64,000 nt of DNA from Candidatus Pacebacteria bacterium CG10_big_fil_rev_8_21_14_0_10_44_54 (lineage in GTDB: Bacteria; Patescibacteriota; Microgenomatia; UBA1400; PJMF01): positions 33,253 to 97,252 of the forward strand of contig PFDI01000001.1 in the NCBI GenBank assembly GCA_002772695.1, given 5' to 3'. The notes under the pieces are model-generated. The model was given only the letters and a program-made list of their open reading frames with translations, ran no database searches and was not told the DNA's origin. Shown piece after piece: positions 15,599 through 36,815 of the stretch. Positions within the stretch are counted from its first letter, which is position 1. Every line of letters begins with the position of its first letter. The position numbers were made by a program, and so were the translations under genes.

Positions 15599-16759
15599 AT
15601 GAAATATACTAGACACTTAGAAGCAAATCTGCTTTCTCATTTTTCCAACTACAAACAAGCAATCGTACTGCTTGGAGCACGCCAAACAGGTAAGACAACG
15701 TTGCTCAGGCGGCTGTTTCCAGATGCGCTCTACATCCTACTCGACAACGAGCAAACAAAAAATGTTCTTGAAACATATGACATCTCAACCTATAAGCAAG
15801 CTATTGGTCGCACCAAACAACTCATTATTGACGAACTTCACCTATTACATGACCCTGGGAGGGCCGTTAAAATCATCTACGATCAGGTCCCTGGTTTGCA
15901 ACTTATTGTCACCGGCTCATCCGCACTCCACATAAAAAACAACTCGACAGAAAGTATGGCGGGTCGAAAAATCGAATACAACTTATTTCCACTCACTTTT
16001 TCTGAGTATCTTGTGCAAAAAAATATAGAGACCGTCCTTAATCACTCTGTACTGACCAATGTACTAGAACAAACAACTCCTCCCAAGCATCTGTTCTCCC
16101 CATCAGGACTGCTCGAGCAGGTTCTACTTTACGGTTTGTATCCTGATGTGCTCAACCTACCAGAACCTCGACAATATCTACTCAATTTGGCTGAAAGCGC
16201 TATTTTTAAAGATATAGTCGAGCTAAACCTCATCGACAATCGCAGTAAAGCAAAATCGCTCCTTGAGCTACTCGCGTATCAGATCGGCAATCTTTGCAAC
16301 TACTCAGAGATCGGCGCCAGATTATCTCTAGATAGACGAACAGTAGAGCGATACATAGACATTTTTGAACAAAGTTTTATTGTATTTCGCATCTTTCCTT
16401 ATGCAAACAACAAAAGAAACGAAATAGGAAAAACGCCAAAAATTTACTTTCATGATTTGGGCCTGCGTAATGCTCTGATCGATAACTATGACTCCATCAC
16501 AGTGCGGTCGGATGCAGGCGCGCTGTTTGAAAATTTTATAATTGCGGAACTCAAAAAAAACATTTCTTATCAACAAAGTGATTTCTCACTCAATTACTGG
16601 CGGACAAATAATGGTGCTGAGGTAGATATTGTTCTCAGTAATAACCACACAGTTATTGGCGCAGAAGTTAAAATGCAGAGTGGTTCAGTTTCTACAGCAT
16701 TTACCAATCGCTATCCTGATGCAAAGACGCACGTTATAACCAGACATACTTTTTATTAG
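15599..16759 (+). CDS. AAA-family ATPase with C-terminal DUF4143 domain (COG1373-like)
   Basis: Walker A LLGARQTGKTTLL. Walker B-like LIIDELHLL. C-terminal DUF4143-like region (SEIGARLSLDRRTVERYIDIFEQSFIVFRIFPYANN...). Confidence 0.65.
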   Translation: MKYTRHLEANLLSHFSNYKQAIVLLGARQTGKTTLLRRLFPDALYILLDNEQTKNVLETYDISTYKQAIGRTKQLIIDELHLLHDPGRAVKIIYDQVPGLQLIVTGSSALHIKNNSTESMAGRKIEYNLFPLTFSEYLVQKNIETVLNHSVLTNVLEQTTPPKHLFSPSGLLEQVLLYGLYPDVLNLPEPRQYLLNLAESAIFKDIVELNLIDNRSKAKSLLELLAYQIGNLCNYSEIGARLSLDRRTVERYIDIFEQSFIVFRIFPYANNKRNEIGKTPKIYFHDLGLRNALIDNYDSITVRSDAGALFENFIIAELKKNISYQQSDFSLNYWRTNNGAEVDIVLSNNHTVIGAEVKMQSGSVSTAFTNRYPDAKTHVITRHTFY

Positions 16760-22138: not shown

Positions 22139-22534
22139 ATGACTTCGCAATCGACCAACACCACTGCTGACGACTGGATTGCTGCCACCGTCCTACGCGG
22201 CGACCAAACTGGCCGTACTATCAACTTCCCTAGCCTCAATCTAGACGCCGCCCTCTGGCCAAAGGCCCTACAGGCACAACCTGGTGTGTATGCTTCGCTC
22301 GTGCAGATTGCAGGCAGGCGGTACAAAGGCGCGCTCTACTACGGCCCAAGGTTAGTAAAAAAAGAAGTACACAACGTGCTTGAGATCCATGTTTTTGATT
22401 TTGCTGAGGAAATCTATGACCAGACAATCGAGTTTCAGATTGGTGCGTTTGTGCGACCACCCCTAGATTTTGACTCGCTCGATGGGCTCAAGCAGCAGTT
22501 GGCGGAGGATGTGGCGAGGGTTGTGGGCTTATAA
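22139..22534 (+). CDS. Monofunctional riboflavin kinase (RibF C-terminal-domain type)
   Basis: GRTINFPSLNL...PGVYASLVQIAGRRYKGALYYGPRLVKKEVHNVLEIHVFDFAEEIYDQTIEFQIGAFVRP matches the riboflavin kinase domain. Only 131 aa, with no FMN-adenylyltransferase domain. Confidence 0.7.
   Translation: MTSQSTNTTADDWIAATVLRGDQTGRTINFPSLNLDAALWPKALQAQPGVYASLVQIAGRRYKGALYYGPRLVKKEVHNVLEIHVFDFAEEIYDQTIEFQIGAFVRPPLDFDSLDGLKQQLAEDVARVVGL
22487..22520. repeat. Direct repeat copy 1 (34 bp) at the 3' end of the riboflavin kinase gene
   Basis: ctcaagcagcagttggcggaggatgtggcgaggg. It matches 23480-23513 at 31 of 34 positions. Confidence 0.8.
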
Positions 22535-23116
22535 CAAGTGGCGCCAATAATTACCCCTGTCGACCTGTTCAACAGTGCTTCCCGGATATGCGTTCAAGAA
22601 ATCTCGAGGTATTTTTGCAGTTCGTTTTGAACTCCACTTGAACTCAAAGCCTGAAAGCTTTCCGTCTCGTTCTTCAATATAATCTATTTCTTTTTGGTCA
22701 TATGTACGCCAGAAATAGCGATTGCTGAAAATTCTAGAGTGGTTAGCTTTTTTTAGAAACTCAACCACGCAAAAATTTTCCCACAGCACGCCCACATCAT
22801 TGCGCAGCGACAGTGGTGCAAATGCCTGCAAAAGTGCGTTTCTCGCCCCCACATCATAAAAGTAAATCTTCTGTGTTTTGCCGACTTCTTTCCGCAGATT
22901 GCGACTAAATCCGCTCAAAGTAAAAACGACAAACGCTTGCTCTAACACAGAGATATACGACTGTACAGTTCTTCTATCAATACCGATAATTGTTCCTAGC
23001 TCTGCGTATGAAACCTCATTGCCGACTTGCAACGCTAACAGTCGCAACAAATCAATTATCACTTTAGAGCGCTTAACACCCAGATACATCAGTGCGTCTT
23101 TGTAATTGTGACGCAA
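22529..23116 (-). pseudogene. Truncated DUF4143 paralog. It is C-terminal-domain only and lacks the AAA/P-loop half.
   Basis: LLRLLALQVGNEVSYAELGTIIGIDRRTVQSYISVLEQAFVVF...KIYFYDVGARNALL aligns with the C-terminal half of the 15599-16759 protein. No Walker A is present. Confidence 0.5.
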
Positions 23117-24674: not shown

Positions 24675-27600
24675 ATGGCGGATTCTGATAGAGATCAAAC
24701 TACCACAACAACGGGATCTGATTTAAAAGACCAAGCTCGACAAGCATTTGGCTCGATTTTTTCATCAGCAAACATCATTCCACTCGACAAGGTTAAGCGC
24801 CTTGGTGTGTATAGGCCAGAAGAACGACCGCAGCTGGCAGCTGTCTTTGATCGACTCACCAAATTTATAAATGCACAGTATCGCTTGATAGATAACCAAA
24901 AAATAATCATTAGGTTGCTCGATCAAGGCGCGGTAGAGTTAACTACCGAAGACCAGCGACAATACAGTGAAGTACCAGAAGCAGAGCGACGCACTCGCCT
25001 CTTTATGGCCGACCTCATTCAGCTTGCCAGTGACATCGGTAAAACACTCTGGAGCTGGGAACAAAGCGAACAATTGCGCGAATTTGGCGAGGTTGATGAG
25101 TGGTATTGGCTCAAAGAGCTCGGCGAAGAGGCTGGTACTAACCAGATTTCAAATTTTTTTGCTAAAGAAAAAATTGCCAAACTGCAACGCGAGCTCTTCG
25201 CTGATATTTGGCATGCATTCAAAGTCGGCGAACCAGAACCAACTGACGAACCAGCGGCAGCTGTCCCCGATGCTTCTGGCGCTACAGTCCCTGGCGAAAA
25301 ACTCGAAGCAATAACAGCTGCCTATGCTGCGAGTGGTAAGGGAGGAGATTCCGACGCTCAAACAGATACAAGCGAAACAGTGACGGCCAAAGAAAGAACT
25401 CCTGCAGAGGAGCTTGGTATTAGAGAGCGGCAAATAGAGCAACAAACCCTACTTATCAAACTACAACAAGAACTCTTTGAAAATATTGTTGGGGACCTAA
25501 CCACAAAAGAGATCGATCAGATGTGGAGTGATCTCGAACCTGGTTTGATCGCAGAAATTACTGATTTTTTTGCTACTCACCCCGAATTGCGAGAAAAGTT
25601 GGCTGTGGCATCGGCTGGTGACAGTCTAGTTCGAAGCGAAATTTATCAACAATTTTTACTTGCTTTACACACAAATGCAAATCTTATAAATAGGTTGACG
25701 CAAATGTATACAGCAGCCAGCGACCGAGCGGTGGTTGTCGGCCCTAATCGAGCTGTTGAACTAGAAAAAAGCCTCAAGCAAGCTGTAGATATTCTCGGAG
25801 AGAACCAAGTTTCGCGGATTATCTCTCATATTGAACAAACAGCGACAATTGCCCAAATCCCCAAGACAAAACCTGCTCCAATTACTACCGAAGCTTCGCC
25901 GCTTGACCAACAAGTATTGCTAGAACCCGAGAGCAAACTGCAGAAGTCTGCTTTTGAGTACCTCACTTCACACGCAGAGTACGAAATATTTCGCAAAACG
26001 CGCATTTTTTTGCACCAGCTTTCGCCAGAGCTTGATCTATCTGCCCAAAACATTCACACAGCGATTGCCGAATTTGCCCGACAAGAGACACTTAGCCTAA
26101 CCACCACCCAACTTCGTTTGGCCCAAGCAGATCCAGCATATCTCAGATCACTTTACGAGCGCTTTGCCAGCAACCTACAGAGACAATATCCAGAAATTAC
26201 CAATTTTCTCATCGACTATGGCTGGTTTATTTCTCAGACAAGCCCCGCTGAGGCAGCCCAGTTTGAACATATCTACCGCAATGGCATTTTGGGCAAAACA
26301 CTGTCTGCCAAAGATGCGCTCAAAACAGAGTTGCAAAATACCCTCAAGGGTGCTGCAACTGCCGTAGTCATCGAAAACACGATCACAACCATCGACGCGA
26401 TGATTCTTGAGTTTGGGGACAAGGCGCCAGAGTTTGTGGAGAGCATATCTATCGATCGACTTGAGCTCGCTTTTGGTCTAGCCAGCGGCACGCTGACAAG
26501 CGAAACAGCTCCGCTCTTTCTGACAACTTTGCGCGGTCAAATGCAGTTGCGTCTCACAGAACTGCGCATGGCTGGTAATCCAGAATTTTTGGCAGCTGGT
26601 GGTTTCCAGGGCGGCGTGCTACCAACCACACCAAAACAAACTGAGACTGTGTTGGCGGCAGTACCACTGTCAAGACAACTGCTAACCACCACACAATCAG
26701 ACACAGAAACAACAATAGCAGCCCTCGGTGCCCCGACGAAGCCTGTTGAAAAAAACCATGCTGCTTGGTGGAGTTCACTGCCCAAGGACGCACAGCTGCA
26801 AGTGTACGCGAAACTCATGGGTTCTGCAGCAGCTGGTGAGTATGCTGCGTTTAGCGCCGTGCCGTTCCCAGATAAATTGTCTGCCTTGAGCAATACTGAG
26901 ATTCGCAAAATGTTGGTTGGAATTTGGTCTGAGTCTCCCCAATTAACGCCAGATCAAACAGCACAATTTCAAACAATTGATCGTGAGCTTGAAACACTCG
27001 ATCGCCTCGTCATTGCACAAGTCAAAACAGCTGAGCTACACAAACAAGTTGTGGCGGCAATCATGCAAGACATCAAGGATGAACAAGCAGCAATAATTGC
27101 TGCTCAACTTGGTCTGCAGGTTGCAGAAAAGGCTTCGGCTCAAGCAACAATTATCGCAGCGGTCAATTCTGGCCAAGCTCCGATTCCAGCTCAAAATCTG
27201 GTAACCATGAATGAAGCACTGGTGCAAGGCGGCTCAAATGCTTTAGTAGGTGCTGATCCGTATGCTAGCAATTTTGCGCAACAATTTGCTGGTCGAGCTG
27301 GTTCGCTTGCGAGCTCGCTGCGATCTGCAGCTATGGAAAAACTCAAAAAAAAGTTGGCAGGCAATCTTTTGAAAGGAGCTGCTACGAAAGCAGGGCTGGC
27401 TGCAACCGGTGTTGGCCTGCCTGCTGCAGCAATTCTCACGCTGCTACAGAATAAAACAGCAAGAAAAATTGTGCTTGGTGGTGGAGCTCTGCTTGTTGCA
27501 AAAACACTATATTCATTGACGACATATGGTGGAGCTCTCGGAGCCATAGCTGGGGGGCTTATTGGAGGACCGATTGGCGCACTGATTGGAGCAAATGTTG

Positions 27601-29021
27601 GGGCAATGATTCCTGGCCTTGGAGGTCAATGGACTGGCCTAATGGGCTGGACTCCCCATGCTCCCACTTCACCATTCTCTACTTCTGGCAGCACCGCCGG
27701 AAGCTTGTCGTCATCGGGTACTAGTTCGCTTCGAGCGCTCAGATCAGAGGGCGCTGCAAACTCAAGCACTGCCGCGCATTCCGTCTCGAGTACTGGAGGA
27801 GAGTCGTTTTCTGCCGCCAACCAAACTGCAACAGCGGCGACACCGGCTTCGGGTAGCACTTTTGTCCAAGGCGACCCAACGGCCGCCACAACCGCAGCAG
27901 GCTCCTCGTCTCTTACTGGATTACTTGGTGCTACTACCGCCACAGTTGTTGCCACCGCTGCCCCTCTTCTCGGTATTGGAGTTGGCTTATTTTTATCAAT
28001 TCAAGTTTTGTTTATAATTTACGGCGCATTTTTGGTTGATGTGCCATCGGAGGGTCTGGGTGGTCCAACTGCAGAACTTTCAAAGTATGCCACACTCACC
28101 AAAAAAGCTAATCCCAATACGCTTCCCATTAATATTCCAAGCGAGGTAACATATACAGTTGAATTTGCCCCGAAAAGCAAATACCGTCTGCAGATCACTC
28201 GGGTTGAAGATGTTTTCTCATATCAGGGCTGTGATAAGACTCAAGCTAATAGTTGCGACCTTAGCCTTGAATCACCTCTCGAACTTGGATCGTTTCCCAC
28301 CGAATCTATAACTAGCCCTGCAGAGGTAGGCTATTCGGTCACAATAAATGGTAGTGATGTTATGGTCATCAATTCACTCACTATCACCTTTGATGTGTAT
28401 GATTCTGCGGGCACCAAGCTTGCCACCAATGAAAGTATTACGGCGCTAGAGTCAGTTGTTGTCGGCAATCCACAGGTGGGTTGCTTTGTGCCTGGAGAGT
28501 CGGGGGAGGCGTTTATAACTAATTTCGGAACAATCTATTCTATGTCGTGGAACGACAAAAACTCTGCTAGTGACTTTAACAAAATTTTATCTGCTTATAG
28601 CAATACTGTTGGAGCCAACGAACAATTTACCAACTTGCTTTGCGCCAAAGGGCCTATCACTCTTTATAGACTTGATAAAAACCCCAATAACTACTATGGC
28701 TGGGCCATGGGATATAGCAAAATTGGTTTTTACGCAGATACGTTTAACAATGTAGTTGGTACCGAATACACACTTGTTCACGAACTAGGACACATCATTG
28801 ATTATCGCAACGCAGGGCTGCGCGCTTCTTTTACCACACTACTTCCCAGAAATCTCTATGCCTGTTTTGATTATCCTGGAAGCACTTGTTCGGATGGTGA
28901 GGCATTTCCCGAAGCTATTGCTCGCTATGCTACAAATTATAAAAACTACAACTTAAAACAAAAACACCCCAAAGTACACACTTGGCTTAAAAATAACATC
29001 TTTGGGGGTATAGAATATTAA
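24675..29021 (+). CDS. Giant (1448 aa) membrane protein. It has a long coiled-coil N-terminal region, glycine-zipper transmembrane segments, a Ser/Thr/Ala-rich linker, and a C-terminal domain with a HExxH zincin motif.
   Basis: Transmembrane/Gly-zipper segments GLAATGVGLPAAAILTLL...GGALGAIAGGLIGGPIGALIGANVGAMIPGLGG and APLLGIGVGLFLSIQVLFIIYGAFLV. C-terminal YTLVHELGHIIDYRN, with downstream acidic residues (GEAFPEAIARY). Confidence 0.5.
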   Translation: MADSDRDQTTTTTGSDLKDQARQAFGSIFSSANIIPLDKVKRLGVYRPEERPQLAAVFDRLTKFINAQYRLIDNQKIIIRLLDQGAVELTTEDQRQYSEVPEAERRTRLFMADLIQLASDIGKTLWSWEQSEQLREFGEVDEWYWLKELGEEAGTNQISNFFAKEKIAKLQRELFADIWHAFKVGEPEPTDEPAAAVPDASGATVPGEKLEAITAAYAASGKGGDSDAQTDTSETVTAKERTPAEELGIRERQIEQQTLLIKLQQELFENIVGDLTTKEIDQMWSDLEPGLIAEITDFFATHPELREKLAVASAGDSLVRSEIYQQFLLALHTNANLINRLTQMYTAASDRAVVVGPNRAVELEKSLKQAVDILGENQVSRIISHIEQTATIAQIPKTKPAPITTEASPLDQQVLLEPESKLQKSAFEYLTSHAEYEIFRKTRIFLHQLSPELDLSAQNIHTAIAEFARQETLSLTTTQLRLAQADPAYLRSLYERFASNLQRQYPEITNFLIDYGWFISQTSPAEAAQFEHIYRNGILGKTLSAKDALKTELQNTLKGAATAVVIENTITTIDAMILEFGDKAPEFVESISIDRLELAFGLASGTLTSETAPLFLTTLRGQMQLRLTELRMAGNPEFLAAGGFQGGVLPTTPKQTETVLAAVPLSRQLLTTTQSDTETTIAALGAPTKPVEKNHAAWWSSLPKDAQLQVYAKLMGSAAAGEYAAFSAVPFPDKLSALSNTEIRKMLVGIWSESPQLTPDQTAQFQTIDRELETLDRLVIAQVKTAELHKQVVAAIMQDIKDEQAAIIAAQLGLQVAEKASAQATIIAAVNSGQAPIPAQNLVTMNEALVQGGSNALVGADPYASNFAQQFAGRAGSLASSLRSAAMEKLKKKLAGNLLKGAATKAGLAATGVGLPAAAILTLLQNKTARKIVLGGGALLVAKTLYSLTTYGGALGAIAGGLIGGPIGALIGANVGAMIPGLGGQWTGLMGWTPHAPTSPFSTSGSTAGSLSSSGTSSLRALRSEGAANSSTAAHSVSSTGGESFSAANQTATAATPASGSTFVQGDPTAATTAAGSSSLTGLLGATTATVVATAAPLLGIGVGLFLSIQVLFIIYGAFLVDVPSEGLGGPTAELSKYATLTKKANPNTLPINIPSEVTYTVEFAPKSKYRLQITRVEDVFSYQGCDKTQANSCDLSLESPLELGSFPTESITSPAEVGYSVTINGSDVMVINSLTITFDVYDSAGTKLATNESITALESVVVGNPQVGCFVPGESGEAFITNFGTIYSMSWNDKNSASDFNKILSAYSNTVGANEQFTNLLCAKGPITLYRLDKNPNNYYGWAMGYSKIGFYADTFNNVVGTEYTLVHELGHIIDYRNAGLRASFTTLLPRNLYACFDYPGSTCSDGEAFPEAIARYATNYKNYNLKQKHPKVHTWLKNNIFGGIEY

Positions 29022-29022
29022 T

Positions 29023-29592
29023 ATGCATAATTTGCAGACAACTCACTGGATTTTTGCTCGCTGGTATTACACGCTAGCTGCAGCTGCTTTTATCCTATTG
29101 GCGAGCGCTGCAATACTACAGCTTCTCACACCAAAACCAGAAAAAACTGCCACTAGTTTTTCTGCACTCATGCCAGGAAACACCTTTTCGAGTAAAAAAC
29201 AACAAGAGCTTGGAGAGCCTATTGAAAGCGCAATAACCGAACAAGGCGACACAAAATATCTCTATCAATCGAGTTTCGCTGCACTGCCAAACGAGTTGTA
29301 TATTAGTAAAGAAAATAAGGTAGTGTTTATAAAGGAGTTTGTTTTACCAGATCACGAACACACCGTCTCACAATATGCGGCAGAATACGGTGAGCCCGAC
29401 CTGGTTATGTATGACTCTAGCTCGCCCGACTCGGTACGAGCGCATGTATTTTTGGAAGCTGGCTTGGTAGTGGTAGCCCATGTAGACGGCGACATTGTCG
29501 AACAAAAATGGCTTTTTGAACCAACCACGAAAGAGAAGTTTTTGGCAGGATATGGCGATACACTCTCAGAAATTGGCTCTGGACCAGAATAA
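29023..29592 (+). CDS. Small bitopic protein: one N-terminal transmembrane helix plus an extracytoplasmic domain of about 150 aa. Possibly a VirB8/PrgL-like T4SS component.
   Basis: Transmembrane helix WIFARWYYTLAAAAFILLASAAILQLL. Size and topology match VirB8-like proteins. Located between the giant protein and the PrgI-like gene. Confidence 0.3.
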   Translation: MHNLQTTHWIFARWYYTLAAAAFILLASAAILQLLTPKPEKTATSFSALMPGNTFSSKKQQELGEPIESAITEQGDTKYLYQSSFAALPNELYISKENKVVFIKEFVLPDHEHTVSQYAAEYGEPDLVMYDSSSPDSVRAHVFLEAGLVVVAHVDGDIVEQKWLFEPTTKEKFLAGYGDTLSEIGSGPE

Positions 29593-29621: not shown

Positions 29622-30833
29622 TTGCTTCATTACCTCTACAATGAAATAACCCGTATGCGAGAACATCCGATCCCACAAGACATAACCGGTTACCGCTTTC
29701 ACATCGTTGGCAGCATGACGCTCAAGCAGTTTGGGGAGCTCGCACTTGGCGCCATAATTGCTTTTATTATTTATAGCACCAATCTTTTTCCTGTCATCAA
29801 GTGGCCGCTCATGTTTGTCGCCTTTGGCTTGGGGGCGTTGGCAGCGTTTGTCCCGATCGCAGAGCGTCCAATCGACCACTGGATCATCACGTTTTTTAAA
29901 GTGTTGTACAAGCCAACACAGTACTATTGGAAACGAAAAGAAAAAATTCCCGATGTATTTTTGTTCAAACCAGGCAAAATTACCGAGGCTCCAGAAGATG
30001 AGGTCGACCTCACCCCGCTGCGTCGACAGCGAATTAGAGAATACCTCTCCTCCACACAATACGAGACTCCTAGCGACGACCTATTGGTAGAAGAACGTGC
30101 TCAAATCCAAGAAATTACAAAGTTATTTGGCGCCACCCATGTACGTCCAAAAGATATGTCAAGCACACAGCCAAAAATAACCCAACGACCCAACCTCACA
30201 ACTCGGGTAAGAGAAATGAGACAAGATGCTTCATTTGACCAAGTCTTTACTATATTTTCACAAGGAGATGCTCGGTCCGCACCAGTAGAGAAGGCTCGGG
30301 GCGTGCAAGACTTGGTTCAAGAAACGACTAATAGCAACAAAAAGTCTATGTACCTTACTACAGAACAGGTGGCGCAAAACATAGAAGTGCCCGAAACCGA
30401 CTCTATTGCTGTAGAAAAAAACCAAGCAAACAAATCTCTAGAGAGAGCAACTGCTTCGTCTGCACCAGAAGAGCAGTTTTTTATTGCCGATCAAAGCGAA
30501 GCAGATTCTGGACCTGCCGCAGCGGGAGCGGCCACTTACAACACGAGTCTGCCATTTCCAGACAAACCAAGCGTGCCAAATAAGTTGGTTGGCATGGTTC
30601 TCTCTGCACAAAACGAGCTGATTCCCGACGCAATTGTAGAAATTCGCACAGCAAGCGGCTCGATTGAGCGCGCGGTCAAAAGCAATGCTTTGGGTCAATT
30701 TTTTATTACCACTCCTCTGGCAAACGGCGAGTATGTGATTGAGGCAGAAAAAGATCGGCTGCAATTCCCAGCCCAAAGTTTTGTTTTGACTGGCAAGCCA
30801 GTTGATCCAATCGAAATCAGAAGCAGCGCATAA
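29622..30833 (+). CDS. PrgI/VirB3-like T4SS membrane protein with a C-terminal carboxypeptidase-regulatory-like beta-sandwich extension
   Basis: Two closely spaced transmembrane helices near the N-terminus (LALGAIIAFIIYSTNLF, WPLMFVAFGLGALAAFVPI), directly upstream of VirB4. The C-terminus (LVGMVLSAQNELIPDAIVEIRTASGSIERAVKSNALGQFFITTPLANGEYVIEAEKDRL) resembles a CarboxypepD_reg-type fold. Confidence 0.45.
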   Translation: MLHYLYNEITRMREHPIPQDITGYRFHIVGSMTLKQFGELALGAIIAFIIYSTNLFPVIKWPLMFVAFGLGALAAFVPIAERPIDHWIITFFKVLYKPTQYYWKRKEKIPDVFLFKPGKITEAPEDEVDLTPLRRQRIREYLSSTQYETPSDDLLVEERAQIQEITKLFGATHVRPKDMSSTQPKITQRPNLTTRVREMRQDASFDQVFTIFSQGDARSAPVEKARGVQDLVQETTNSNKKSMYLTTEQVAQNIEVPETDSIAVEKNQANKSLERATASSAPEEQFFIADQSEADSGPAAAGAATYNTSLPFPDKPSVPNKLVGMVLSAQNELIPDAIVEIRTASGSIERAVKSNALGQFFITTPLANGEYVIEAEKDRLQFPAQSFVLTGKPVDPIEIRSSA

Positions 30834-30884: not shown

Positions 30885-31916
30885 ATGCCCGATACAATTA
30901 CCACCACCCAATCGTTTTTGGATATTTACGACATCACCAACGACCTACTGTTGATGAAAGACGGCACTACTTCACTAGTGATGATCGTCGACGCGATGAA
31001 CTTTGGCCTGCTTGCAGAATCAGAACAGGACGCCATTATGTATGCCTACGCGGGCCTGCTCAACTCAATCAATTATCCCATTCAAATTGTTATCAACTCG
31101 CGCACCAAAGATGTAACAACCTATCTACATTTACTCGAGCAGCAAGAGTCTGAAACTGCTTCGCCCATTATGCAGGGTCGCATTCGTGCATATCGAGAGT
31201 TTGTTGGCAATCTCATCCACGATCGCAATGTGCTCGACAAAAAGTTTTATGTCGTCATCCCCGCCACTCCGCTAGAGCTCGGTATGATCGCGCCCTCAAG
31301 CGTTCTGCCTGGTAAACAATCGCCGGGGATCGAAAGTATGGAGAGATCTGTTATCATTGAAAAAGCGGTAAACCTGCTTGAGCCAAAACGAGATCATCTT
31401 GCAGCACAGTTTGCGCGAATCGGCCTTTTTTCTCGCCAACTGACTACGCAAGAAATTATCCAATTGTTTTATATCAAGTACAACCCAGAGGCTGCCGAAG
31501 GGCAGCACATCGCTGAAAGTAGTAGTTATAGCGCGCCGCTAGTACACGCGCGCATTCAAGGAGAACATATGGATGCTCCAACACCAACCAACCCAACACC
31601 CACGGCCGTGCCGGAACCAACTGCGACGCCAGTGACTCCGCAGCCAGCTGCTGCAGAACCCACTCCACCAACACCTGTGGCTCAACCTACTTCGCCCACT
31701 CCGCCAGAGCCAGCTGCTGCTACAGCACCTGCTGTATCGCCTGCCCCAACTGCCACAGACGAGAGCGCAATACAAGCAGATCTCAACGCAAGTGTTCAAT
31801 CTATGGGACAGGCGCCAATCACACCAATTCCGCCAGGAGGACCAGCGGCAACAACACCAACTACTCCTGATACTGCGGTTCAACCAGCAACACCCGCGCA
31901 ACTGCCAGAGATTTAG
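30885..31916 (+). CDS. VirB4/TrbE N-terminal domain ORF, ending in a Pro/Thr/Ala-rich low-complexity tail (first part of a split VirB4)
   Basis: FLDIYDITNDLLLMKDGTTSLVMIVDAMNFGLLAESEQDAIMYAYAGLLNSINYPIQIVINS matches the VirB4/PrgJ N-terminal region. The tail is PTPTNPTPTAVPEPTATPVTPQPAAAEPTPPTP... Confidence 0.55.
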   Translation: MPDTITTTQSFLDIYDITNDLLLMKDGTTSLVMIVDAMNFGLLAESEQDAIMYAYAGLLNSINYPIQIVINSRTKDVTTYLHLLEQQESETASPIMQGRIRAYREFVGNLIHDRNVLDKKFYVVIPATPLELGMIAPSSVLPGKQSPGIESMERSVIIEKAVNLLEPKRDHLAAQFARIGLFSRQLTTQEIIQLFYIKYNPEAAEGQHIAESSSYSAPLVHARIQGEHMDAPTPTNPTPTAVPEPTATPVTPQPAAAEPTPPTPVAQPTSPTPPEPAAATAPAVSPAPTATDESAIQADLNASVQSMGQAPITPIPPGGPAATTPTTPDTAVQPATPAQLPEI

Positions 31917-31938
31917 GATTTGGCCAATAAACAATACT

Positions 31939-31967
31939 CAACCCACAACTTTCATTGTTGTGGGTTG
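31939..31967 (+). other. Perfect 11-bp stem / 7-nt loop hairpin in the 70-bp gap between the two VirB4 ORFs
   Basis: caacccacaac-tttcatt-gttgtgggttg. No following T-tract, so it is not a canonical intrinsic terminator. Confidence 0.6.
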
Positions 31968-31986
31968 TTGCGTACAATAGCTTGTA

Positions 31987-33909
31987 ATGCCCAGTCTAAG
32001 CTCGCTCCTACCATTTGCAAAAAAACCAAAAGAAGCAGATCGCTCTTTGCAAGATAACGCGGCGGCTCGCTCGCTCGAAAAAATTCAAGAATTTTCTCGA
32101 GGTCTAGTGACGATTCAAGATATTATTGCACCCGAGGCTATTGAAGTAGATTTTACCTACCAAAAAATTAATTCTACATACACCCGCACCCTATTTGTGG
32201 CCGGTTATCCCCGCAGTGTTCCAGCAAACTGGCTTGGTCCGCTCATCAATTTTCCCCATCAAATGCACGTCTCTATGTTTATTTTTCCAGTTGATTCTGG
32301 AGAAGTGCTCGACAACCTTAAACGCAAAATTACCGAGATGGAAGCAGAAATTCAATCTGACTTACGAGCGGGCAAAATCAGTAACATCAATACCGAGGTA
32401 AAGCTCGAGGACGCTCGCTTTATTCGCGAAGAGCTCGCCAAAGGTTCGGAGCGGTTTTTTCAATTTGGCTTATATGTCACTGTCACCGCCCAATCACTCG
32501 AAGAGCTGAACCGAGTCACCAAGAGTATTCAATCCTCACTTGGTTCATTGCTTATCGTCTCAAAAAATGCCACTCTCCAAATGGATGAGGGATTCAAAAC
32601 CACACTACCAATGGGTGTTGATAAGCTGCTTGTAACTCGCAATATGGATACCACCTCGCTTGCGACAACCTTTCCTTTTACCTCGTCTGAACTCACGATG
32701 GAGAGCGGCATAATGTATGGGATCAATGAACACAACGACTCGCTTGTCATTTTTGATCGATTTGAAATGGAAAATGCCAATATGATTATTTTTGCCAAAT
32801 CTGGTGCTGGCAAGTCCTACACAGTCAAACTCGAAATTTTGCGTCAACTTATGTTTGGAATTGATGTCATCGTGCTCGACCCAGAGCATGAGTATGAAGA
32901 ATTATCCAAAGCAGTTGGTGGTGAGTACCTCAATTTCACCTTTAGTTCAAAAGCGCGCATCAACCCCTTTGATCTCTCCAATATTTATGAAGAGGGAGAA
33001 AATGAGCTAGGACAAAAAATTATCTCACTCCACGGTTTGCTCAAAGTCATGCTCGGCGAGATGACGCCACAACAAGACGCGCTACTCGATCGAGCGCTTG
33101 TGGCAGCTTACAAAGCCAAAGGAATTACTCCTGATCCTGCCACTCAAACACTCGAGCCACCCCTCATGGAGGATGTATATAAGGCACTCATTGGCATGGA
33201 AAATGAGGATGCCAATAACATTGCTGCACGCCTCGAAAAGTTTATCACCGGCTCATTCCGCGGCATTTTTGATCAACCTTCCAATTTTAATATTACTAAT
33301 CAACTCACTGTTTTTTCGGTCAAAGAAATGGAGGAGGGTCTGCGACCAATTGCTATGTACATAATACTCGACTATATCTGGACAAAAGTAAAGAAAAATC
33401 TCAAAAAGCGAATTTTGGTTATTGATGAAGCCTGGTACTTCATGACAAGCAAAGACTCGGCCTCATTTATTTACTCAATGGTAAAACGAGCCCGCAAGTA
33501 CTACCTTGGTATAACCACTATTACGCAAGATGTTGAAGACTTCGTTTCTAACGACTACGGCAAGGCTATTATCTCTAATGCCTCTATTCAGTTTTTGATG
33601 AAACAATCAACCGCCTCTATTCCTGTTCTGGCCGAAACTTTCTACCTTTCTCAGGGAGAAAGACAACTCCTCATCACCGCCGACATTGGTGAAGGTATCT
33701 TTTTTGCTGGACAAAATCACGTTGCGCTTCGTGTGGTGGCCTCGCCAGAAGAGCACGGGATTATTACTACCAATCCGGAAGAGATTCTTAGAAAAAACAA
33801 ACAACGCACGCTTGTTGCTTCCCAAGAAGCAACCAATCAAAATAAATCGCCAGTTACACAAGAAAGTCTGTCGAGTAGTATTGATGACTATTCCCCGCCC
33901 CCAAACTAA
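31987..33909 (+). CDS. VirB4/TrbE/CagE-family T4SS ATPase (central and C-terminal ATPase domains)
   Basis: Walker A IFAKSGAGKSYTV. Walker B LVIDEAWYF. Upstream CagE/TrbE-type region (YTRTLFVAGYPRSVPANWLGPL). Confidence 0.8.
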   Translation: MPSLSSLLPFAKKPKEADRSLQDNAAARSLEKIQEFSRGLVTIQDIIAPEAIEVDFTYQKINSTYTRTLFVAGYPRSVPANWLGPLINFPHQMHVSMFIFPVDSGEVLDNLKRKITEMEAEIQSDLRAGKISNINTEVKLEDARFIREELAKGSERFFQFGLYVTVTAQSLEELNRVTKSIQSSLGSLLIVSKNATLQMDEGFKTTLPMGVDKLLVTRNMDTTSLATTFPFTSSELTMESGIMYGINEHNDSLVIFDRFEMENANMIIFAKSGAGKSYTVKLEILRQLMFGIDVIVLDPEHEYEELSKAVGGEYLNFTFSSKARINPFDLSNIYEEGENELGQKIISLHGLLKVMLGEMTPQQDALLDRALVAAYKAKGITPDPATQTLEPPLMEDVYKALIGMENEDANNIAARLEKFITGSFRGIFDQPSNFNITNQLTVFSVKEMEEGLRPIAMYIILDYIWTKVKKNLKKRILVIDEAWYFMTSKDSASFIYSMVKRARKYYLGITTITQDVEDFVSNDYGKAIISNASIQFLMKQSTASIPVLAETFYLSQGERQLLITADIGEGIFFAGQNHVALRVVASPEEHGIITTNPEEILRKNKQRTLVASQEATNQNKSPVTQESLSSSIDDYSPPPN

Positions 33910-33976
33910 CACTCGTTTTCTCACTTGCTAATTGTGGAAAAGACTGTGTATAACTAAGTGCTCTGCCCCAGTTATT

Positions 33977-35458
33977 ATGGAATCTCGTACGCTCTCACCA
34001 GAAGAAACTTCGCGCGTGTGGCAACAATGTTGTGCACAACTCAAAAAAGACCTAAGTGCGGCTGTTTATAACACGTGGATTGTGGCAAATCCTCTTACCC
34101 ACCTAGAATATATTGATCTGTCTCGGGCAGTTGCAAACATTACAAGCCCAACGGCATTTCACTCAACCAATGTCAAAAAAAACTTTCATACCCAATTAAC
34201 ACAAACTTTGTCTGAACTCACTCAAAGACAAGTAGAAATTTCCTACTACATTGGTTCGCTGCCACAAAACACTGCTGGAGTAATAAAAACAATTAAACCG
34301 GGCAACAACCCTTCCTCAAGACCAATCCTCACCAAACCAGAGTTTTCGCCGTCTCCTCGAGTTGAAGAGCTCTTTTCTCCAAATACAATCGAGTCTGCTG
34401 GTGTGGATCGGATTGCACTAAAAAGTAAACAAATTGGTTTGCGTACCGACTTCACGTTTGAAACTTTTGCCGTCTCAACAAGTAATGAAATGGCACACGC
34501 AGCGGCTACAGCAGTCTCAAATCAGCCAGGAAGCTCTTATAACCCCCTCTTTCTTTATGGTGGCGTCGGCGTCGGCAAAACCCACCTGATGCATGCTATT
34601 GCCAATAATATTCTACAAACAAACCCACAGTCTCGCATGATTTACTGCACTGGTGAGGAGTTTACTAATGAAATTGTTCAGGCGATTCAAACTAAAAGAG
34701 CGGGTGTTTTCAAAGATCGCTATCGCTCAGCACAAGTTTTGCTTATTGATGATATCCAGTTTATCGCTGGAAAAAATGCAGTACAGGAAGAATTTTTTCA
34801 CACGTTCAACGCCCTAACCAAAAAAAGTCATCAAATTGTGCTCACCTCAGACCGACCCCCACAAGAAATTCGACTACTCGAAGATAGGCTGCGGTCGAGA
34901 TTTGAAGCCGGACTTATGATTGATATCCAAGAACCGTCGTTTGAACTGCGAACGGCCATAATTTTACTCAAAAGCCAAGCTCAAAATATAACAATTTCCA
35001 TTGATCTTGCCAAAAAAATTGCTGAAACTGTTGATTCTGCTCGAAGAATTGAGGGTATTATCACCCTGATTCGATCGGCGGTTGAGTTGCAAGGTCGAAA
35101 AATTGATCTTGAACTAATCGAACAGATTATAAAAACTTCCCAACCACTTGAGCAGCGAGGCGTGCTGAAAAAATCTCCTAGTGAAGTCATCAAAACTGTC
35201 GCGACTCACTTTTCTGTCAAACAATTAGCAATCAAAGGCAAAAGTAGAGTAAAGAATCTGGTTACAGCGCGTCATATTGCTATGTATCTTCTCAAAACAG
35301 AGCTTTCACTCCCATTAGTAGAAATTGGTCGTTGGTTTGCAAACCGTGATCACACAAGCGTACTACATGCCGTCAAAAAAATTGAAGCAGAACTCTTGCG
35401 AGACACACAATTACAGCGAGAAATATCATTTATTCGCAAGTCTCTTCAAACCACCTAG
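33977..35458 (+). CDS. dnaA: Chromosomal replication initiator DnaA. ATG 33977 is preferred; the ORF track begins at TTG 33932.
   Basis: AAA+ motif GGVGVGKTHLMHAIAN. Sensor and box motifs. C-terminal DNA-binding domain (VTARHIAMYLLKTELSLPLVEIGRWFANRDHTSVLHAVKKIE). DnaA-box-like TGTGGAAAA and TGTGTATAA at 33934-33954, just upstream. Confidence 0.9.
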   Translation: MESRTLSPEETSRVWQQCCAQLKKDLSAAVYNTWIVANPLTHLEYIDLSRAVANITSPTAFHSTNVKKNFHTQLTQTLSELTQRQVEISYYIGSLPQNTAGVIKTIKPGNNPSSRPILTKPEFSPSPRVEELFSPNTIESAGVDRIALKSKQIGLRTDFTFETFAVSTSNEMAHAAATAVSNQPGSSYNPLFLYGGVGVGKTHLMHAIANNILQTNPQSRMIYCTGEEFTNEIVQAIQTKRAGVFKDRYRSAQVLLIDDIQFIAGKNAVQEEFFHTFNALTKKSHQIVLTSDRPPQEIRLLEDRLRSRFEAGLMIDIQEPSFELRTAIILLKSQAQNITISIDLAKKIAETVDSARRIEGIITLIRSAVELQGRKIDLELIEQIIKTSQPLEQRGVLKKSPSEVIKTVATHFSVKQLAIKGKSRVKNLVTARHIAMYLLKTELSLPLVEIGRWFANRDHTSVLHAVKKIEAELLRDTQLQREISFIRKSLQTT

Positions 35459-35711
35459 TCCTTGTTGATAACTTTGGTGATATCTTTGTATTACTGTTAA
35501 TAAAGTTGGTATAAAAATCGATAATAATTACTACGTGTTCACAAGTACTCACAATTGTTCCCTACAAATTCACAAGCTTTTCCCCGCAGTTGTACATTTG
35601 TTATCCACACCTTACTACTTGGCTAAAACACTCTGTTATACCCAAAGTATCTGCTCTCTACTACTACTATGACTACTAATTAGAACTGGATAAATACAGT
35701 ACAATGCACAC
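35459..35711. other. Putative oriC: the AT-rich dnaA-dnaN spacer with DnaA boxes
   Basis: Perfect TTATCCACA at 35601-35609. Box-like TGTTCACAA (35536-35544), CTCACAAT and TTCACAAG. AT-rich stretch 35464-35534. Confidence 0.6.
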
Positions 35712-36815
35712 ATGAAGTTTTTAGTTTCCAAAACAACATTTCACACAACACTACAAAAGTTGCAGCGAGTACTTCCAAATAAACCACAACTACCTACTTT
35801 GGCTGCAATTCATATTTTGGTAAAAAAAAATCGAGTAATACTTACAGCCACAGACCTGTATCTAGGTATTCAAGCGCCACTTGAATCTCAGATTGAATCA
35901 GAGGGAGTGGTTGTAGTGCCGGGTAAGTTACTTCTAGCTGCCGTCAGTTCGTTTCCGGAAGGCGAGATTGTGGTAACAGAAACAGCCGGAACACTAAACC
36001 TAGTGTCTCGCGCAAGTAAGGTGAAGTTGCAAACCCTCTCACTCGAAGAATATCCAGAATTTCCCGAGGTAAGCGGAGAAAGTGTTTTGCTTGCCACAAG
36101 TGATTTACTTTCTGTTGAACAGTATGTACTACCAAGTGTTTCAAAAGACATTACTAGACCAGTGCTCACGGCGGTACAACTCGAATTGACAACAACTACT
36201 TTTCGCGCCGTTGGTACAGATGGTTTTCGTTTATCTGTGTTTGGTACAACCACCGAGTCAGAACACGCAAAGACACTACTAGCCCCCGCCCGTACACTCC
36301 TTGAATATATTAAACTTGCCCAGGCAGAGGAAGTATCCAATGTAGAGCTGCTCGTTTCGAGTAAGCTACAACAAGTATTGGCAAAAATTGGCGACGTATT
36401 GGTATTTTCTCGACTTGTTACGGGGGAGTATCCACCATTCGAACAGATTATTCCCAGTGAAAGTACGACAGAAGTTGTTTGTGAAGCCGATGAGTTGCTC
36501 GAGCAGGTGCGACGAGCACACGTGTTAACCAGCGGTTCTTCACATATAGTGCAGTTTCGTATTTCACCTGAATTAGTTGAGATTTCTACCCCGACGACAA
36601 CAGAGGGCTCGTTTGAAGGAGTGTTAACCTCAGCAAAAGTGACAGGAAATCCATTGAAAATAGCCTTTAATGCTGTGTATTTACTTGATATGTTAAAACA
36701 ATTTTCATCACAAGAATTGCGTCTTGGTATGACTGAGGCACTAAAACCAGTGATTTTTCGCTCTCAAACGCTTTCATCGTTTCTCTACGTCGTTATGCCA
36801 TTTCGAGTGGTATAA
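35712..36815 (+). CDS. dnaN: DNA polymerase III beta sliding clamp
   Basis: 367 aa with a three-domain clamp-like sequence. Canonical position after dnaA. Confidence 0.8.

What the first reader, a model, noticed from the sequence alone, without database searches (positions are those of the whole stretch)
30885..33909. VirB4 encoded as two ORFs, with a perfect 11-bp hairpin between them
The 343-aa ORF carries the VirB4 N-terminal domain plus a Pro/Thr/Ala-rich tail, then stops. After a 70-bp gap containing the hairpin caacccacaac/gttgtgggttg, a 640-aa ORF begins in a different frame with the CagE/TrbE region and the Walker A/B ATPase. A simple frameshift does not reconnect them, because the frame of the second ORF has a stop at 31978-31980. 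This is either a genuine split VirB4 (two-subunit ATPase), a recent disruption, or a sequencing or assembly artefact. The hairpin could act in translational coupling or attenuation.
Basis: seen in the sequence. Interest (0 to 1): 0.6.

Follow-up and report, generated by a model that had tools for sequence, protein, structure and literature searches.

The report
TrsD plus short VirB4 gene pair

Summary
ORF1 (30885-31916, 343 aa), ORF2 (31987-33909, 640 aa), the 70-nt spacer, the TAG at 31978-31980 and the perfect 11-bp hairpin (31939-31967) are all present.

ORF1 is a TrsD-family protein (Pfam PF26593 'TraC-like'). It corresponds to the first N-terminal subdomain of VirB4, followed by a disordered Pro/Ala/Thr tail. 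ORF2 is a TrsE-type short VirB4: the second N-terminal subdomain plus the ATPase.

The split is neither an artefact nor a recent disruption.
- Every close relative examined has the same two genes in the same synteny: PrgI-like, TrsD-like, VirB4, dnaA, dnaN.
- 149 of the 150 best cluster representatives for the ORF1 profile are stand-alone proteins.
- Bacillota plasmids (pSK41 trsD-trsE and others) have the same pair.
- Rare fused forms in Patescibacteria (787 aa, e.g. Ca. Amesbacteria) are collinear with ORF1+ORF2. Their model superposes on full-length R388 TrwK/VirB4.

Quinonero-Coronel et al. 2025 already reported TrsD beside virB4 near dnaA across Patescibacteria.

The hairpin occurs only in this lineage and one related lineage. 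Other relatives have 8-12 nt spacers, so the split does not need it. Its 40-nt block is 100% conserved amid diverged flanks, and its function is unknown.

The parts
29622..30833 (+). PrgI/VirB3-like membrane protein with a C-terminal CarboxypepD_reg-like domain. It is the gene immediately upstream of the pair.
   Evidence: Pfam PrgI, E 6e-06, residues 16-97; CarboxypepD_reg, E 3e-05. Same position in relatives L001, L003, L005 and L007. The order matches trsC-trsD-trsE in pSK41.
30885..31499 (+). ORF1 folded domain (residues 1-205). It is TrsD-family / Pfam PF26593 'TraC-like' and equals the first N-terminal subdomain of full-length VirB4.
   Evidence: - 880 homologues were found. The 120 best are all stand-alone proteins of 243-516 aa carrying PF26593 (family name).
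- 48% identical to residues 8-204 of the fused 787-aa VirB4 P0339.
- NCBIfam VirB4_plasma positions 112-235, E 2e-05; TrsD/TraD, E 0.027.
- BLASTP E 2e-26 to the Pontibacillus plasmid protein upstream of VirB4.
- hhalign 90% probability to B. cereus 'TrsD'.
- AF2 model pLDDT 70.8. The top 10 PDB fold hits are all TrwK/VirB4.
31500..31913 (+). ORF1 tail (residues 206-343). After a short conserved stretch (SSSYSAPLVHA) comes a low-complexity Pro/Ala/Thr-rich linker of variable length, ending in the C-terminal motif LPEI (31902-31913).
   Evidence: Composition: P 23%, A 19%, T 15%. pLDDT is below 50 from residue 203. Tail length varies widely among homologues. Roughly 70 of the 120 closest homologues end in a PEI-type motif such as (D)LPPLPEI, by eye from the list; 93 of all 269 family members scanned match the motif pattern.
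31939..31967 (.). Perfect 11-bp inverted repeat with a 7-nt loop in the ORF1-ORF2 spacer.
   Evidence: The RNA fold contains this stem and the 96-nt region has z = -3.0. An identical copy is present in L003, L004 and L011 (81% ORF1 relative) and in L044. It is absent from L001, L005 and L007.
31968..31978 (+). Conserved motif TTGCGTACAAT just upstream of the ORF2 start. It contains a -10-like TACAAT.
   Evidence: Shared with L003 and with the more distant L005, L015, L022 and L041 loci. Hairpin plus motif (31939-31978) is 40/40 identical between the window and L003, while the flanks are 23-66% identical. The promoter scan did not call a promoter here.
31987..33909 (+). ORF2: a TrsE-type short VirB4 ATPase. 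It holds the second N-terminal subdomain (about residues 47-260) and the RecA-like ATPase domain, with Walker A at 32794-32817 and Walker B at 33412-33429.
   Evidence: - NCBIfam conju_CD1110, E 3e-112, model positions 178-733 of 752.
- Pfam P-loop_TraG, AAA_10 and DUF87.
- PDB 4ag5 VirB4 C-terminal domain, E 1e-43; TrwK 446-736 aligns to ORF2 265-562.
- 63% identical to P0339 residues 213-777.
- 25% identical to pSK41 TrsE, E 5e-45, starting at the same domain boundary.
- Relatives are 76-92% identical, 627-810 aa, and none carries PF26593.
24675..29592 (+). Two conserved upstream genes of the same cluster: a 1448-aa multi-pass membrane protein and a 189-aa protein. Function not established.
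   Evidence: Conserved synteny in L001, L003 and L005. No significant Pfam family for either. Translation.
33932..36815 (+). dnaA (33932-35458) and dnaN (35712-36815), directly downstream. This is the chromosomal, origin-proximal context.
   Evidence: Translations. Pfam annotation of the orthologues in L001, L003 and L005. A perfect DnaA box at 35601-35609. The cumulative GC-skew minimum lies near 40-42 kb. The literature reports the same context (PMC12102498).

Best explanation
ORF1 and ORF2 are the TrsD-like and TrsE-like (short VirB4) subunits of the chromosomal, MPF-FATA-related type IV secretion system of a Microgenomates/'Pacebacteria'-type Patescibacterium (CPR).

Full-length VirB4 has an N-terminal domain built from two successive alpha/beta subdomains with the same order of secondary-structure elements, followed by a RecA-like ATPase. 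Here the first subdomain is a separate polypeptide: ORF1 residues 1-205, extended by a disordered Pro/Ala/Thr tail that ends in LPEI. ORF2 carries the second subdomain plus the ATPase. The break lies in the naturally variable, low-complexity interdomain linker.

Shown here:
- the homology of each ORF;
- collinearity of the pair with fused homologues;
- conservation of the two-gene state;
- fold similarity of the fused homologue to TrwK/VirB4 over its whole length.

Inferred:
- ORF1 binds ORF2 non-covalently and so rebuilds the complete VirB4 N-terminal domain;
- as in R388, that domain is what VirB3 (here the PrgI-like protein encoded just upstream) wraps around, and what mediates VirB4-VirB4 dimer contacts, so the pair anchors and organises the ATPase hexamer at the membrane.

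The hairpin is a lineage-specific intercistronic element. It is probably an RNA stem that affects mRNA stability, partial termination or ORF2 initiation. It is not part of the split architecture as such.
For: 1. Two-gene state is conserved. All of the 120 best ORF1 homologues are stand-alone proteins with PF26593. All of the 120 best ORF2 homologues lack PF26593. Identical synteny is seen in L001, L003, L005 and L007 from JGI, NCBI, ENA and Logan assemblies. The exact junction is reproduced in L044.
2. Library-wide profile search. It found 2126 clusters. Of the best 150, 149 are stand-alone with the domain at the N-terminus.
3. Fused homologues exist.
   - P0339 (787 aa, Patescibacteria MAG) matches ORF1 6-205 at 48% identity and ORF2 47-610 at 63%, in that order.
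   - It matches the CD1110 VirB4 model at positions 3-735 of 752 in one stretch.
   - About 40 further fused clusters of 780-897 aa carry PF26593 plus PF19044.
   - The junction alignment shows a variable linker exactly where ORF1 and ORF2 are separated.
4. Structure.
   - The ORF1 model's top 10 PDB hits are all TrwK/VirB4.
   - The fused-homologue model (pLDDT 78.9) aligns to full-length TrwK with TM 0.69/0.68, E 2e-26.
   - Its two N-terminal subdomains share the same order of secondary-structure elements.
5. Same pair in Bacillota plasmids. pSK41 has trsC-trsD-trsE. B. cereus pH308197_73 has TrsD-TrsE. A Pontibacillus plasmid has the same pair.
6. Literature.
   - TrsD shares remote homology with the VirB4 N-terminal portion and is the most abundant T4SS component in Patescibacteria.
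   - 1,664 of 2,272 homologues lie near virB4, and the T4SS lies near dnaA/dnaN in Microgenomatia.
   - The TrsD homologue is essential in Ca. Southlakia epibionticum (PMC12102498).
   - In R388, VirB3 wraps around the VirB4 N-terminal domain, and the N-terminal domains mediate the VirB4 dimer (PMC9259494).
Against: - No direct evidence here that ORF1 and ORF2 bind each other.
- ORF1 scores far below the NCBIfam TrsD cut-off (14 bits against 200). It is only marginally similar to the pSK41 TrsD prototype (hhalign E 0.0055, probability 6.6%). Family membership therefore rests on intermediate sequences and on the precomputed Pfam PF26593 hit. The local Pfam copy gave no hit.
- The ORF1 fold match to TrwK is weak in absolute terms (E about 1e-2, TMq 0.36-0.40).
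- In Gracilibacteria the TrsD homologues are not next to virB4, so obligatory pairing is not universal.
Confidence: 0.85

Rival explanations
1. A recent disruption, i.e. a pseudogenised VirB4. On this view an ancestral single virB4 gene was broken in this genome by a small insertion or stop, and one or both halves are decaying.
For: - Fused versions exist in related Patescibacteria.
- The window's spacer (70 nt) is longer than in most relatives and contains an insertion-like hairpin block.
Against: - Both ORFs are intact.
- The same two-gene state is found in all close relatives and in 149 of the 150 best cluster representatives.
- The ORF1 end motif (LPEI) and the ORF2 start peptide (MPSLSSLLPF..KK) are themselves conserved.
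- The ATPase is 76-92% identical across relatives, which indicates strong purifying selection.
- The same split occurs in Bacillota plasmids.
Confidence: 0.02
2. A sequencing or assembly artefact: a frameshift or mis-join at 31900-32000.
For: None beyond the a priori possibility in metagenome-derived sequence.
Against: - An independent ENA contig (L044) has the identical stop, 70-nt spacer, hairpin and ATG.
- L003 (NCBI MAG) and L004 (Logan assembly of a different run) carry the same hairpin-containing spacer.
- No single frameshift reconnects the frames.
Confidence: 0.01
3. Programmed recoding. The two ORFs would be joined into one VirB4 polypeptide by frameshifting, stop-codon read-through or ribosomal bypass, with the hairpin as the stimulatory structure.
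For: - A stable hairpin lies between the ORFs.
- In L005 and L007 the two ORFs are in the same frame, separated by one TAG.
Against: - In the window, stops block both relevant frames (TAG at 31914 and TAG at 31978).
- The hairpin lies 22 nt after the stop with no slippery site.
- The frame relation differs among relatives: same frame in L005 and L007, different in the window, L001 and L003.
- Spacer length varies from 8 to 70 nt.
- ORF2 keeps its own conserved N-terminal Met-Pro-Ser-Leu peptide.
Confidence: 0.02
4. The hairpin is a functional regulatory element, such as a partial intrinsic terminator, an mRNA 3'-end stabiliser or an operator. It would set the TrsD:VirB4 expression ratio in this sub-lineage.
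For: - The 40-nt block (hairpin plus TTGCGTACAAT) is 40/40 identical between the window and L003, although the flanks are 23-66% identical.
- The stem is stable (z = -3.0).
- It is the only such perfect hairpin in 64 kb.
Against: - Only two U residues follow the stem on the + strand. The terminator scan flags it only on the - strand, where no gene ends.
- No Rfam family matches.
- It is absent from most relatives.
- No sequence variants were found, so covariation cannot be tested.
- About 10% of random windows contain such a stem.
Confidence: 0.4

Closest known systems
TrsD + TrsE of the staphylococcal conjugative plasmids pGO1/pSK41 (MPF-FATA, pGO1 subclass), and TraD + TraE of pIP501
   Same: - The gene order is the same: VirB3-like (trsC / PrgI-like), then TrsD-like, then a short VirB4.
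- TrsE (672 aa) and ORF2 (640 aa) start at the same domain boundary and are 25% identical (E 5e-45).
- TrsD is a small protein with remote homology to the VirB4 N-terminal portion (PMC12102498).
- ORF1 gives collinear full-length alignments to TrsD proteins.
   Different: - The locus here is chromosomal, next to dnaA, with no relaxase seen nearby.
- ORF1 has a roughly 140-aa disordered Pro/Ala/Thr tail with a C-terminal LPEI motif. pSK41 TrsD (227 aa) lacks this.
- Sequence similarity to the prototype is marginal (hhalign E 0.0055).
Patescibacteria T4SS as described by Quinonero-Coronel et al. 2025 (Microb Genom 11:001409) and Wang et al. 2023 (Cell)
   Same: It has the same components (TrsD, VirB4, PrgI/VirB3) and the same origin-proximal location beside dnaA/dnaN/rnpA/rpmH in Microgenomatia. 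TrsD is adjacent to virB4 in most genomes (synteny here).
   Different: Nothing essential: this window is another instance. In the passages read here, that paper does not describe the TrsD-VirB4 fused forms, the conserved C-terminal (D)LPPLPEI motif or the spacer hairpin.
Full-length VirB4 ATPases: the CD1110/Tn916-Orf16 family in Firmicutes, and TrwK of R388
   Same: ORF1 and ORF2 together are collinear with the CD1110 model. ORF2 covers positions 178-733, and the fused relative P0339 covers 3-735. The fused relative's model superposes on full-length TrwK (TM 0.69).
   Different: Here there are two polypeptides instead of one. The linker is replaced by a long disordered tail on ORF1 and a 46-residue N-terminal extension on ORF2.

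Membership tests
VirB4 ATPase (MPF-FATA / CD1110-type), applied to ORF2 | P-loop ATPase domain with Walker A and Walker B, homologous to the VirB4 C-terminal domain | tested here: met
   Walker A is AKSGAGKS (residues 270-277) and Walker B is ILVIDE (476-481). Pfam P-loop_TraG E 3e-24. PDB 4ag5 VirB4 C-terminal domain E 1e-43.
VirB4 ATPase (MPF-FATA / CD1110-type), applied to ORF2 | Score above the curated NCBIfam cut-off for conju_CD1110 | tested here: met
   376 bits against a cut-off of 325, E 3e-112. However, only model positions 178-733 of 752 are covered.
VirB4 ATPase (MPF-FATA / CD1110-type), applied to ORF2 | A complete N-terminal domain (both subdomains) in the same polypeptide | tested here: not met
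   Model positions 1-177 are missing from ORF2. They are supplied by ORF1, as shown by the fused P0339.
TrsD/TraD family (Pfam PF26593 'TraC-like'; NCBIfam NF041427), applied to ORF1 | Significant match to the family profile | tested here: inconclusive
   - NCBIfam TrsD gives E 0.027 and 14 bits, against a cut-off of 200.
- The local Pfam copy gave no hit.
- The precomputed annotation gives PF26593 for P0001, which is 100% identical to ORF1 over the 93% of ORF1 that its shorter 320-aa gene call covers, and for all 120 best homologues.
- Relatives P0282 and P0296 hit TrsD at E 2e-07.
TrsD/TraD family (Pfam PF26593 'TraC-like'; NCBIfam NF041427), applied to ORF1 | Homology to annotated TrsD proteins of Gram-positive conjugative plasmids | tested here: met
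   - BLASTP E 2e-26 (29% identity over 207 aa) to the Pontibacillus plasmid protein in the TrsD position.
- hhalign probability 90%, E 1.7e-06, to B. cereus 'TrsD'.
- Only marginal similarity to the pSK41 TrsD prototype (E 0.0055).
TrsD/TraD family (Pfam PF26593 'TraC-like'; NCBIfam NF041427), applied to ORF1 | Encoded immediately upstream of a short VirB4 and downstream of a VirB3-like gene | tested here: met
   The window order is PrgI-like, ORF1, ORF2. The same order is found in L001, L003, L005 and L007, in pSK41, and in the B. cereus and Pontibacillus plasmids.
TrsD/TraD family (Pfam PF26593 'TraC-like'; NCBIfam NF041427), applied to ORF1 | Homology to the N-terminal portion of full-length VirB4 | tested here: met
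   - 48% identity to residues 8-204 of the fused VirB4 P0339.
- NCBIfam VirB4_plasma positions 112-235, E 2e-05.
- The Foldseek top 10 are all TrwK.
Two-subunit VirB4 complex (ORF1 bound to ORF2) | Physical association of the two polypeptides | not testable with these tools
   Only single-chain prediction was available. The fused homologue's model is a proxy, not a test.
Intrinsic terminator / attenuator (the hairpin) | GC-rich stem followed by a U-tract on the coding strand | tested here: not met
   The stem is present (11 bp, 6 GC pairs), but only UU follows it on the + strand. The scan calls it only on the - strand.

The most novel reading that the evidence does not exclude
In the split systems, the long disordered tail of the TrsD-like protein and its conserved C-terminal (D)LPPLPEI peptide would act as a flexible leash. 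The leash would dock onto the VirB4 ATPase or another T4SS component and so replace the covalent interdomain linker of fused VirB4. In this sub-lineage, the perfectly conserved 40-nt hairpin block would additionally tune the TrsD:VirB4 ratio. Together these would make the pair a regulated, dissociable N-terminal module of VirB4 rather than a mere gene fission.
Probability: 0.2. Interest if true: 0.45.

Novelty: already known. Interest (0 to 1): 0.2.

Why it matters
The T4SS of Patescibacteria is essential for their epibiotic growth, and no function has yet been assigned to TrsD (PMC12102498).

This window adds no new kind of system. The comparison does make one point concrete. Fused and split forms coexist among closely related Microgenomates, and the fused form models as a complete TrwK-like VirB4. 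TrsD is therefore best read as the detachable first N-terminal subdomain of VirB4, part of the N-terminal domain that in R388 binds VirB3 and pairs VirB4 subunits. That gives a testable functional hypothesis for TrsD.

As a scan result, it should be filed as a correctly observed but ordinary and already published arrangement.

Tried and rejected
- **Local Pfam scans.** Scans of ORF1, of its domain alone and of three homologues found no family. The name PF26593 'TraC-like' comes only from precomputed annotations.
- **Duplicate of the ORF2 N-terminal subdomain.** ORF1 was tested by sequence as a duplicate of the ORF2 N-terminal subdomain. hhalign gave E 0.25, so there is no detectable sequence similarity. 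The shared order of secondary-structure elements appears only in the model.
- **Hairpin as a repeated element.** It occurs once in the window. The only hit in 185,579 species-representative genomes is the L003 contig.
- **Search for hairpin variants.** A metagenome scan with the conserved TTGCGTACAAT...ATGCCCAG motif returned three true relatives, all without a hairpin; the remaining matches showed no VirB4-like start and look like chance matches. No covariation analysis was therefore possible.
- **Hairpin arms as DnaA boxes.** They match the consensus at only 6 of 9 positions, and the arm motif is not enriched in the window. Rejected.
- **Rfam.** No family in 31500-32400.
- **Promoter at TACAAT.** Not called by the scan, and there is no acceptable -35 element.
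- **Co-variation of the terminal peptides.** The TrsD C-terminal motif was compared with the VirB4 N-terminal peptide in 32 contig-matched pairs. VirB4 keeps its N-terminal peptide whether or not TrsD ends in PEI, so this gives no support for that particular docking pair.
- **Programmed frameshift or read-through.** Rejected on the frames and the variable spacers.


Full report
**1. Observation**

The ORF list and raw sequence confirm every element of the finding.
- ORF1 runs 30885-31916 (+, 343 aa).
- ORF2 runs 31987-33909 (+, 640 aa), shifted by +1 relative to ORF1.
- The spacer is 70 nt, and TAG at 31978-31980 closes the ORF2 frame upstream of its ATG.
- The perfect inverted repeat is CAACCCACAAC (31939-49) / GTTGTGGGTTG (31957-67) with a 7-nt loop.

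The stem dominates the predicted RNA fold of the spacer (-26.3 kcal/mol for 96 nt, z = -3.0). It is the only perfect hairpin of at least 11 bp with a 3-10 nt loop in the 64-kb window. About 10% of Markov-simulated windows contain one, so by chance alone it is only mildly unusual.

**2. What the two ORFs are**

ORF2 is a VirB4-family ATPase.
- It matches Pfam P-loop_TraG, AAA_10 and DUF87.
- It matches the NCBIfam VirB4-like CD1110 family at E 3e-112, above the curated cut-off.
- It matches the crystal structure of the Thermoanaerobacter VirB4 C-terminal domain at E 1e-43.
- The CD1110 match covers only model positions 178-733 of 752, so the first ~177 positions of a full-length VirB4 are absent from ORF2.

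ORF1 supplies the missing part.
- It has no hit in the local Pfam copy.
- In NCBIfam it weakly matches positions 112-235 of a mycoplasma VirB4 model (E 2e-05) and the TrsD/TraD family (E 0.027).
- These positions lie directly before the region of the same VirB4 model that ORF2 matches (292-880).
- All 120 best homologues of ORF1 are stand-alone proteins of 243-516 aa from Pacebacteria, Woesebacteria, Microgenomates and other Patescibacteria. All carry the precomputed Pfam family PF26593, which the look-up tool names 'TraC-like'.

**3. Real split, disruption or artefact?**

Four sets of related loci (L001/L002, L003/L004, L005/L006, L007/L008; 62-83% ORF1 identity; from JGI, NCBI, ENA and Logan assemblies) show the same gene order. 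That order is a giant 1330-1460-aa protein, a small protein, a PrgI-like protein, the TraC-like protein, a 637-641-aa VirB4, dnaA, dnaN and rnpA/yidC.
- The two genes are always separate.
- An independent ENA contig (L044) reproduces the window's stop, 70-nt spacer, hairpin and ATG base for base.
- The 120 best ORF2 relatives (76-92% identical) never carry PF26593.
- A profile of the ORF1 domain, searched against 1.84 billion cluster representatives, found 2126 clusters. Among the best 150, 149 are stand-alone with the domain at the N-terminus.

Recent disruption and assembly error are therefore excluded.

Programmed recoding is also excluded.
- Stops block the relevant frames.
- The frame relation between the two genes differs among relatives: the same frame in L005 and L007, different in the window, L001 and L003.
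- Spacers range from 8 to 70 nt.

**4. ORF1 is the detached first subdomain of VirB4**

The one exception, P0339 (787 aa, a Patescibacteria MAG seen in several assemblies), is a single polypeptide.
- Its residues 8-204 are 48% identical to ORF1 6-205 (E 5e-61).
- Its residues 213-777 are 63% identical to ORF2 47-610.
- It matches the CD1110 VirB4 model from position 3 to 735 in one stretch.

A search with P0339 found about 40 further fused clusters (780-897 aa, PF26593 plus PF19044), some named Ca. Amesbacteria. They are interleaved in score with unfused 573-667-aa VirB4s of 78-88% identity, some also from Amesbacteria.

The junction alignment shows that fused proteins connect the two parts by a linker of about 8 to 120 residues, often low-complexity. 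ORF1 ends and ORF2 begins exactly within this linker.

An AlphaFold2 model of the ORF1 domain (pLDDT 70.8) has TrwK/VirB4 of R388 as all of its top 10 PDB matches. The scores are modest (E about 1e-2, TMq 0.36-0.40).

A model of the fused P0339 (pLDDT 78.9, pTM 0.67) aligns with full-length TrwK at TM 0.69/0.68, E 2e-26. Its secondary structure shows two successive subdomains with the same element order (beta-beta-beta-alpha-beta-alpha-alpha-beta-alpha-beta-alpha) before the ATPase. ORF1 is the first subdomain, and ORF2 begins with the second. By sequence the two are not detectably similar.

**5. The arrangement is known**

tblastn of the ORF1 domain against plasmids hits proteins directly upstream of short VirB4 genes.
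- A Pontibacillus plasmid: BLASTP E 2e-26, 29% identity over 207 aa, upstream of a 621-aa CD1110-family VirB4.
- B. cereus pH308197_73, where the pair is annotated TrsD-TrsE.
- pSK41, which has trsC (VirB3-like), trsD (227 aa) and trsE (672 aa) in the same order as PrgI-like, ORF1 and ORF2 here.

TrsE aligns with ORF2 from the same domain boundary (E 5e-45). Similarity of ORF1 to the pSK41 prototype itself is marginal.

Quinonero-Coronel et al. 2025 (PMC12102498) state the following.
- TrsD is the most abundant T4SS component in Patescibacteria: 2,272 homologues, 1,664 of them near virB4.
- The T4SS lies near dnaA/dnaN in Microgenomatia and Paceibacteria.
- The TrsD homologue of Ca. Southlakia epibionticum is essential.

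The window is one more instance of this.

**6. Likely mechanism**

In the R388 structure the VirB4 N-terminal domain (residues 15-400) is wrapped by VirB3. It also forms the whole interface between the central and outer VirB4 subunits (PMC9259494).

By inference, ORF1 associates non-covalently with ORF2 to complete this domain. It would do so at the membrane-proximal face, next to the PrgI/VirB3-like protein encoded just upstream. This step is inferred, not shown.

ORF1 also has a tail of about 140 residues (P 23%, A 19%, T 15%; pLDDT below 50 from residue 203) that ends in LPEI. Roughly 70 of the 120 closest homologues, judged by eye from the list, end in a PEI-type motif such as (D)LPPLPEI, despite very variable tail length; 93 of all 269 family members scanned match the motif pattern. 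This suggests a docking peptide on a flexible leash.

The partner of that peptide is unknown. VirB4's own conserved N-terminal peptide does not co-vary with it.

**7. The hairpin**

The hairpin is absent from L001 (8-nt spacer), L007 (12 nt) and L005 (12 nt), so the split does not depend on it. It is present, identical in stem and loop, in L003/L004/L011.

The 40-nt block of hairpin plus TTGCGTACAAT is 40/40 identical between the window and L003. The adjacent spacer is 23% identical and the flanking coding sequence 55-66% identical. The TTGCGTACAAT motif alone also persists in the more distant L005-type loci. The block is therefore under constraint in this sub-lineage.

Several explanations do not fit.
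- It is not a canonical terminator, because only UU follows the stem on the + strand.
- It is not a called promoter.
- It is not an Rfam family.
- It is not a repeated element.
- It is not a convincing DnaA-box pair.

No variants were found, so covariation could not be tested. Its role remains open. It may be an mRNA stabiliser, a partial terminator, or a modulator of ORF2 initiation.

**8. Verdict**

The 'genuine split VirB4' reading is correct. The 'disruption', 'artefact' and 'hairpin-mediated coupling' readings are not.

The arrangement is the known TrsD/TrsE-type pair, already published for Patescibacteria, so novelty is low. Three points appear to be minor additions to the passages of that paper read here:
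- the TrsD-VirB4 fused forms in Amesbacteria-like lineages, which identify TrsD as VirB4's first subdomain;
- the conserved C-terminal LPPLPEI motif;
- the locally conserved 40-nt hairpin block.

Noticed in passing
related proteins P0432, P0433, P0436, P0442, P0443, P0484, P0486, P0495, P0511: Several close VirB4 relatives in Patescibacteria are 1158-1215 aa. They carry intein domains (PF14528 LAGLIDADG_3 and PF14890 Intein_splicing) inserted in the ATPase.
   Followed up: no
window 31987-32025 and 33880-33906; relatives: VirB4 of this clade keeps a conserved N-terminal peptide, MP(D/S/N)L..(S)LLPF(G/F)KKK. After a variable tail it also keeps a conserved C-terminal peptide, (Y)SI(D/E)(D/N)Y.PP (in the window...SIDDYSPPPN). 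The TrsD-like partner often ends in (D)LPPLPEI. No co-variation between the TrsD C-terminus and the VirB4 N-terminus was seen in 32 contig-matched pairs.
   Followed up: partly
window 9482-13789 (+): A 1435-aa protein with a glycosyl-hydrolase catalytic core and a C-terminal SLT lytic-transglycosylase domain lies about 17 kb upstream of virB4. It is a candidate VirB1-like cell-wall hydrolase.
   Followed up: no
window 15599-16759 (+) and 22529-23116 (-): There is a complete AAA_14 + DUF4143 ATPase (386 aa). A second DUF4143-only ORF (195 aa) sits on the opposite strand and may be a truncated paralogue.
   Followed up: no
window 24675-29021 (+): The 1448-aa multi-pass membrane protein at the head of the conserved cluster has no Pfam match and carries an HExxH-like motif (HELGH) near its C-terminus. 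Its counterpart in L005 carries a Peptidase_M23 domain instead.
   Followed up: no
window 33933-33953, 35463-35471, 35601-35609: A perfect DnaA box (TTATCCACA) and a one-mismatch box lie in the dnaA-dnaN spacer. Two one-mismatch boxes overlap the listed dnaA start, right after virB4. The cumulative GC-skew minimum is near 40-42 kb, consistent with an origin close to this locus.
   Followed up: partly
window 1-64000: ARAGORN found no tRNA or tmRNA gene in the whole 64-kb window.
   Followed up: no
window 30885 versus L044 385: The gene caller for the identical ENA contig started ORF1 at an internal Met (320 aa). However, the N-terminal residues upstream of it (TTQSFLDIYDITND) are conserved across the family. 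This supports the ATG at 30885 as the true start.
   Followed up: partly
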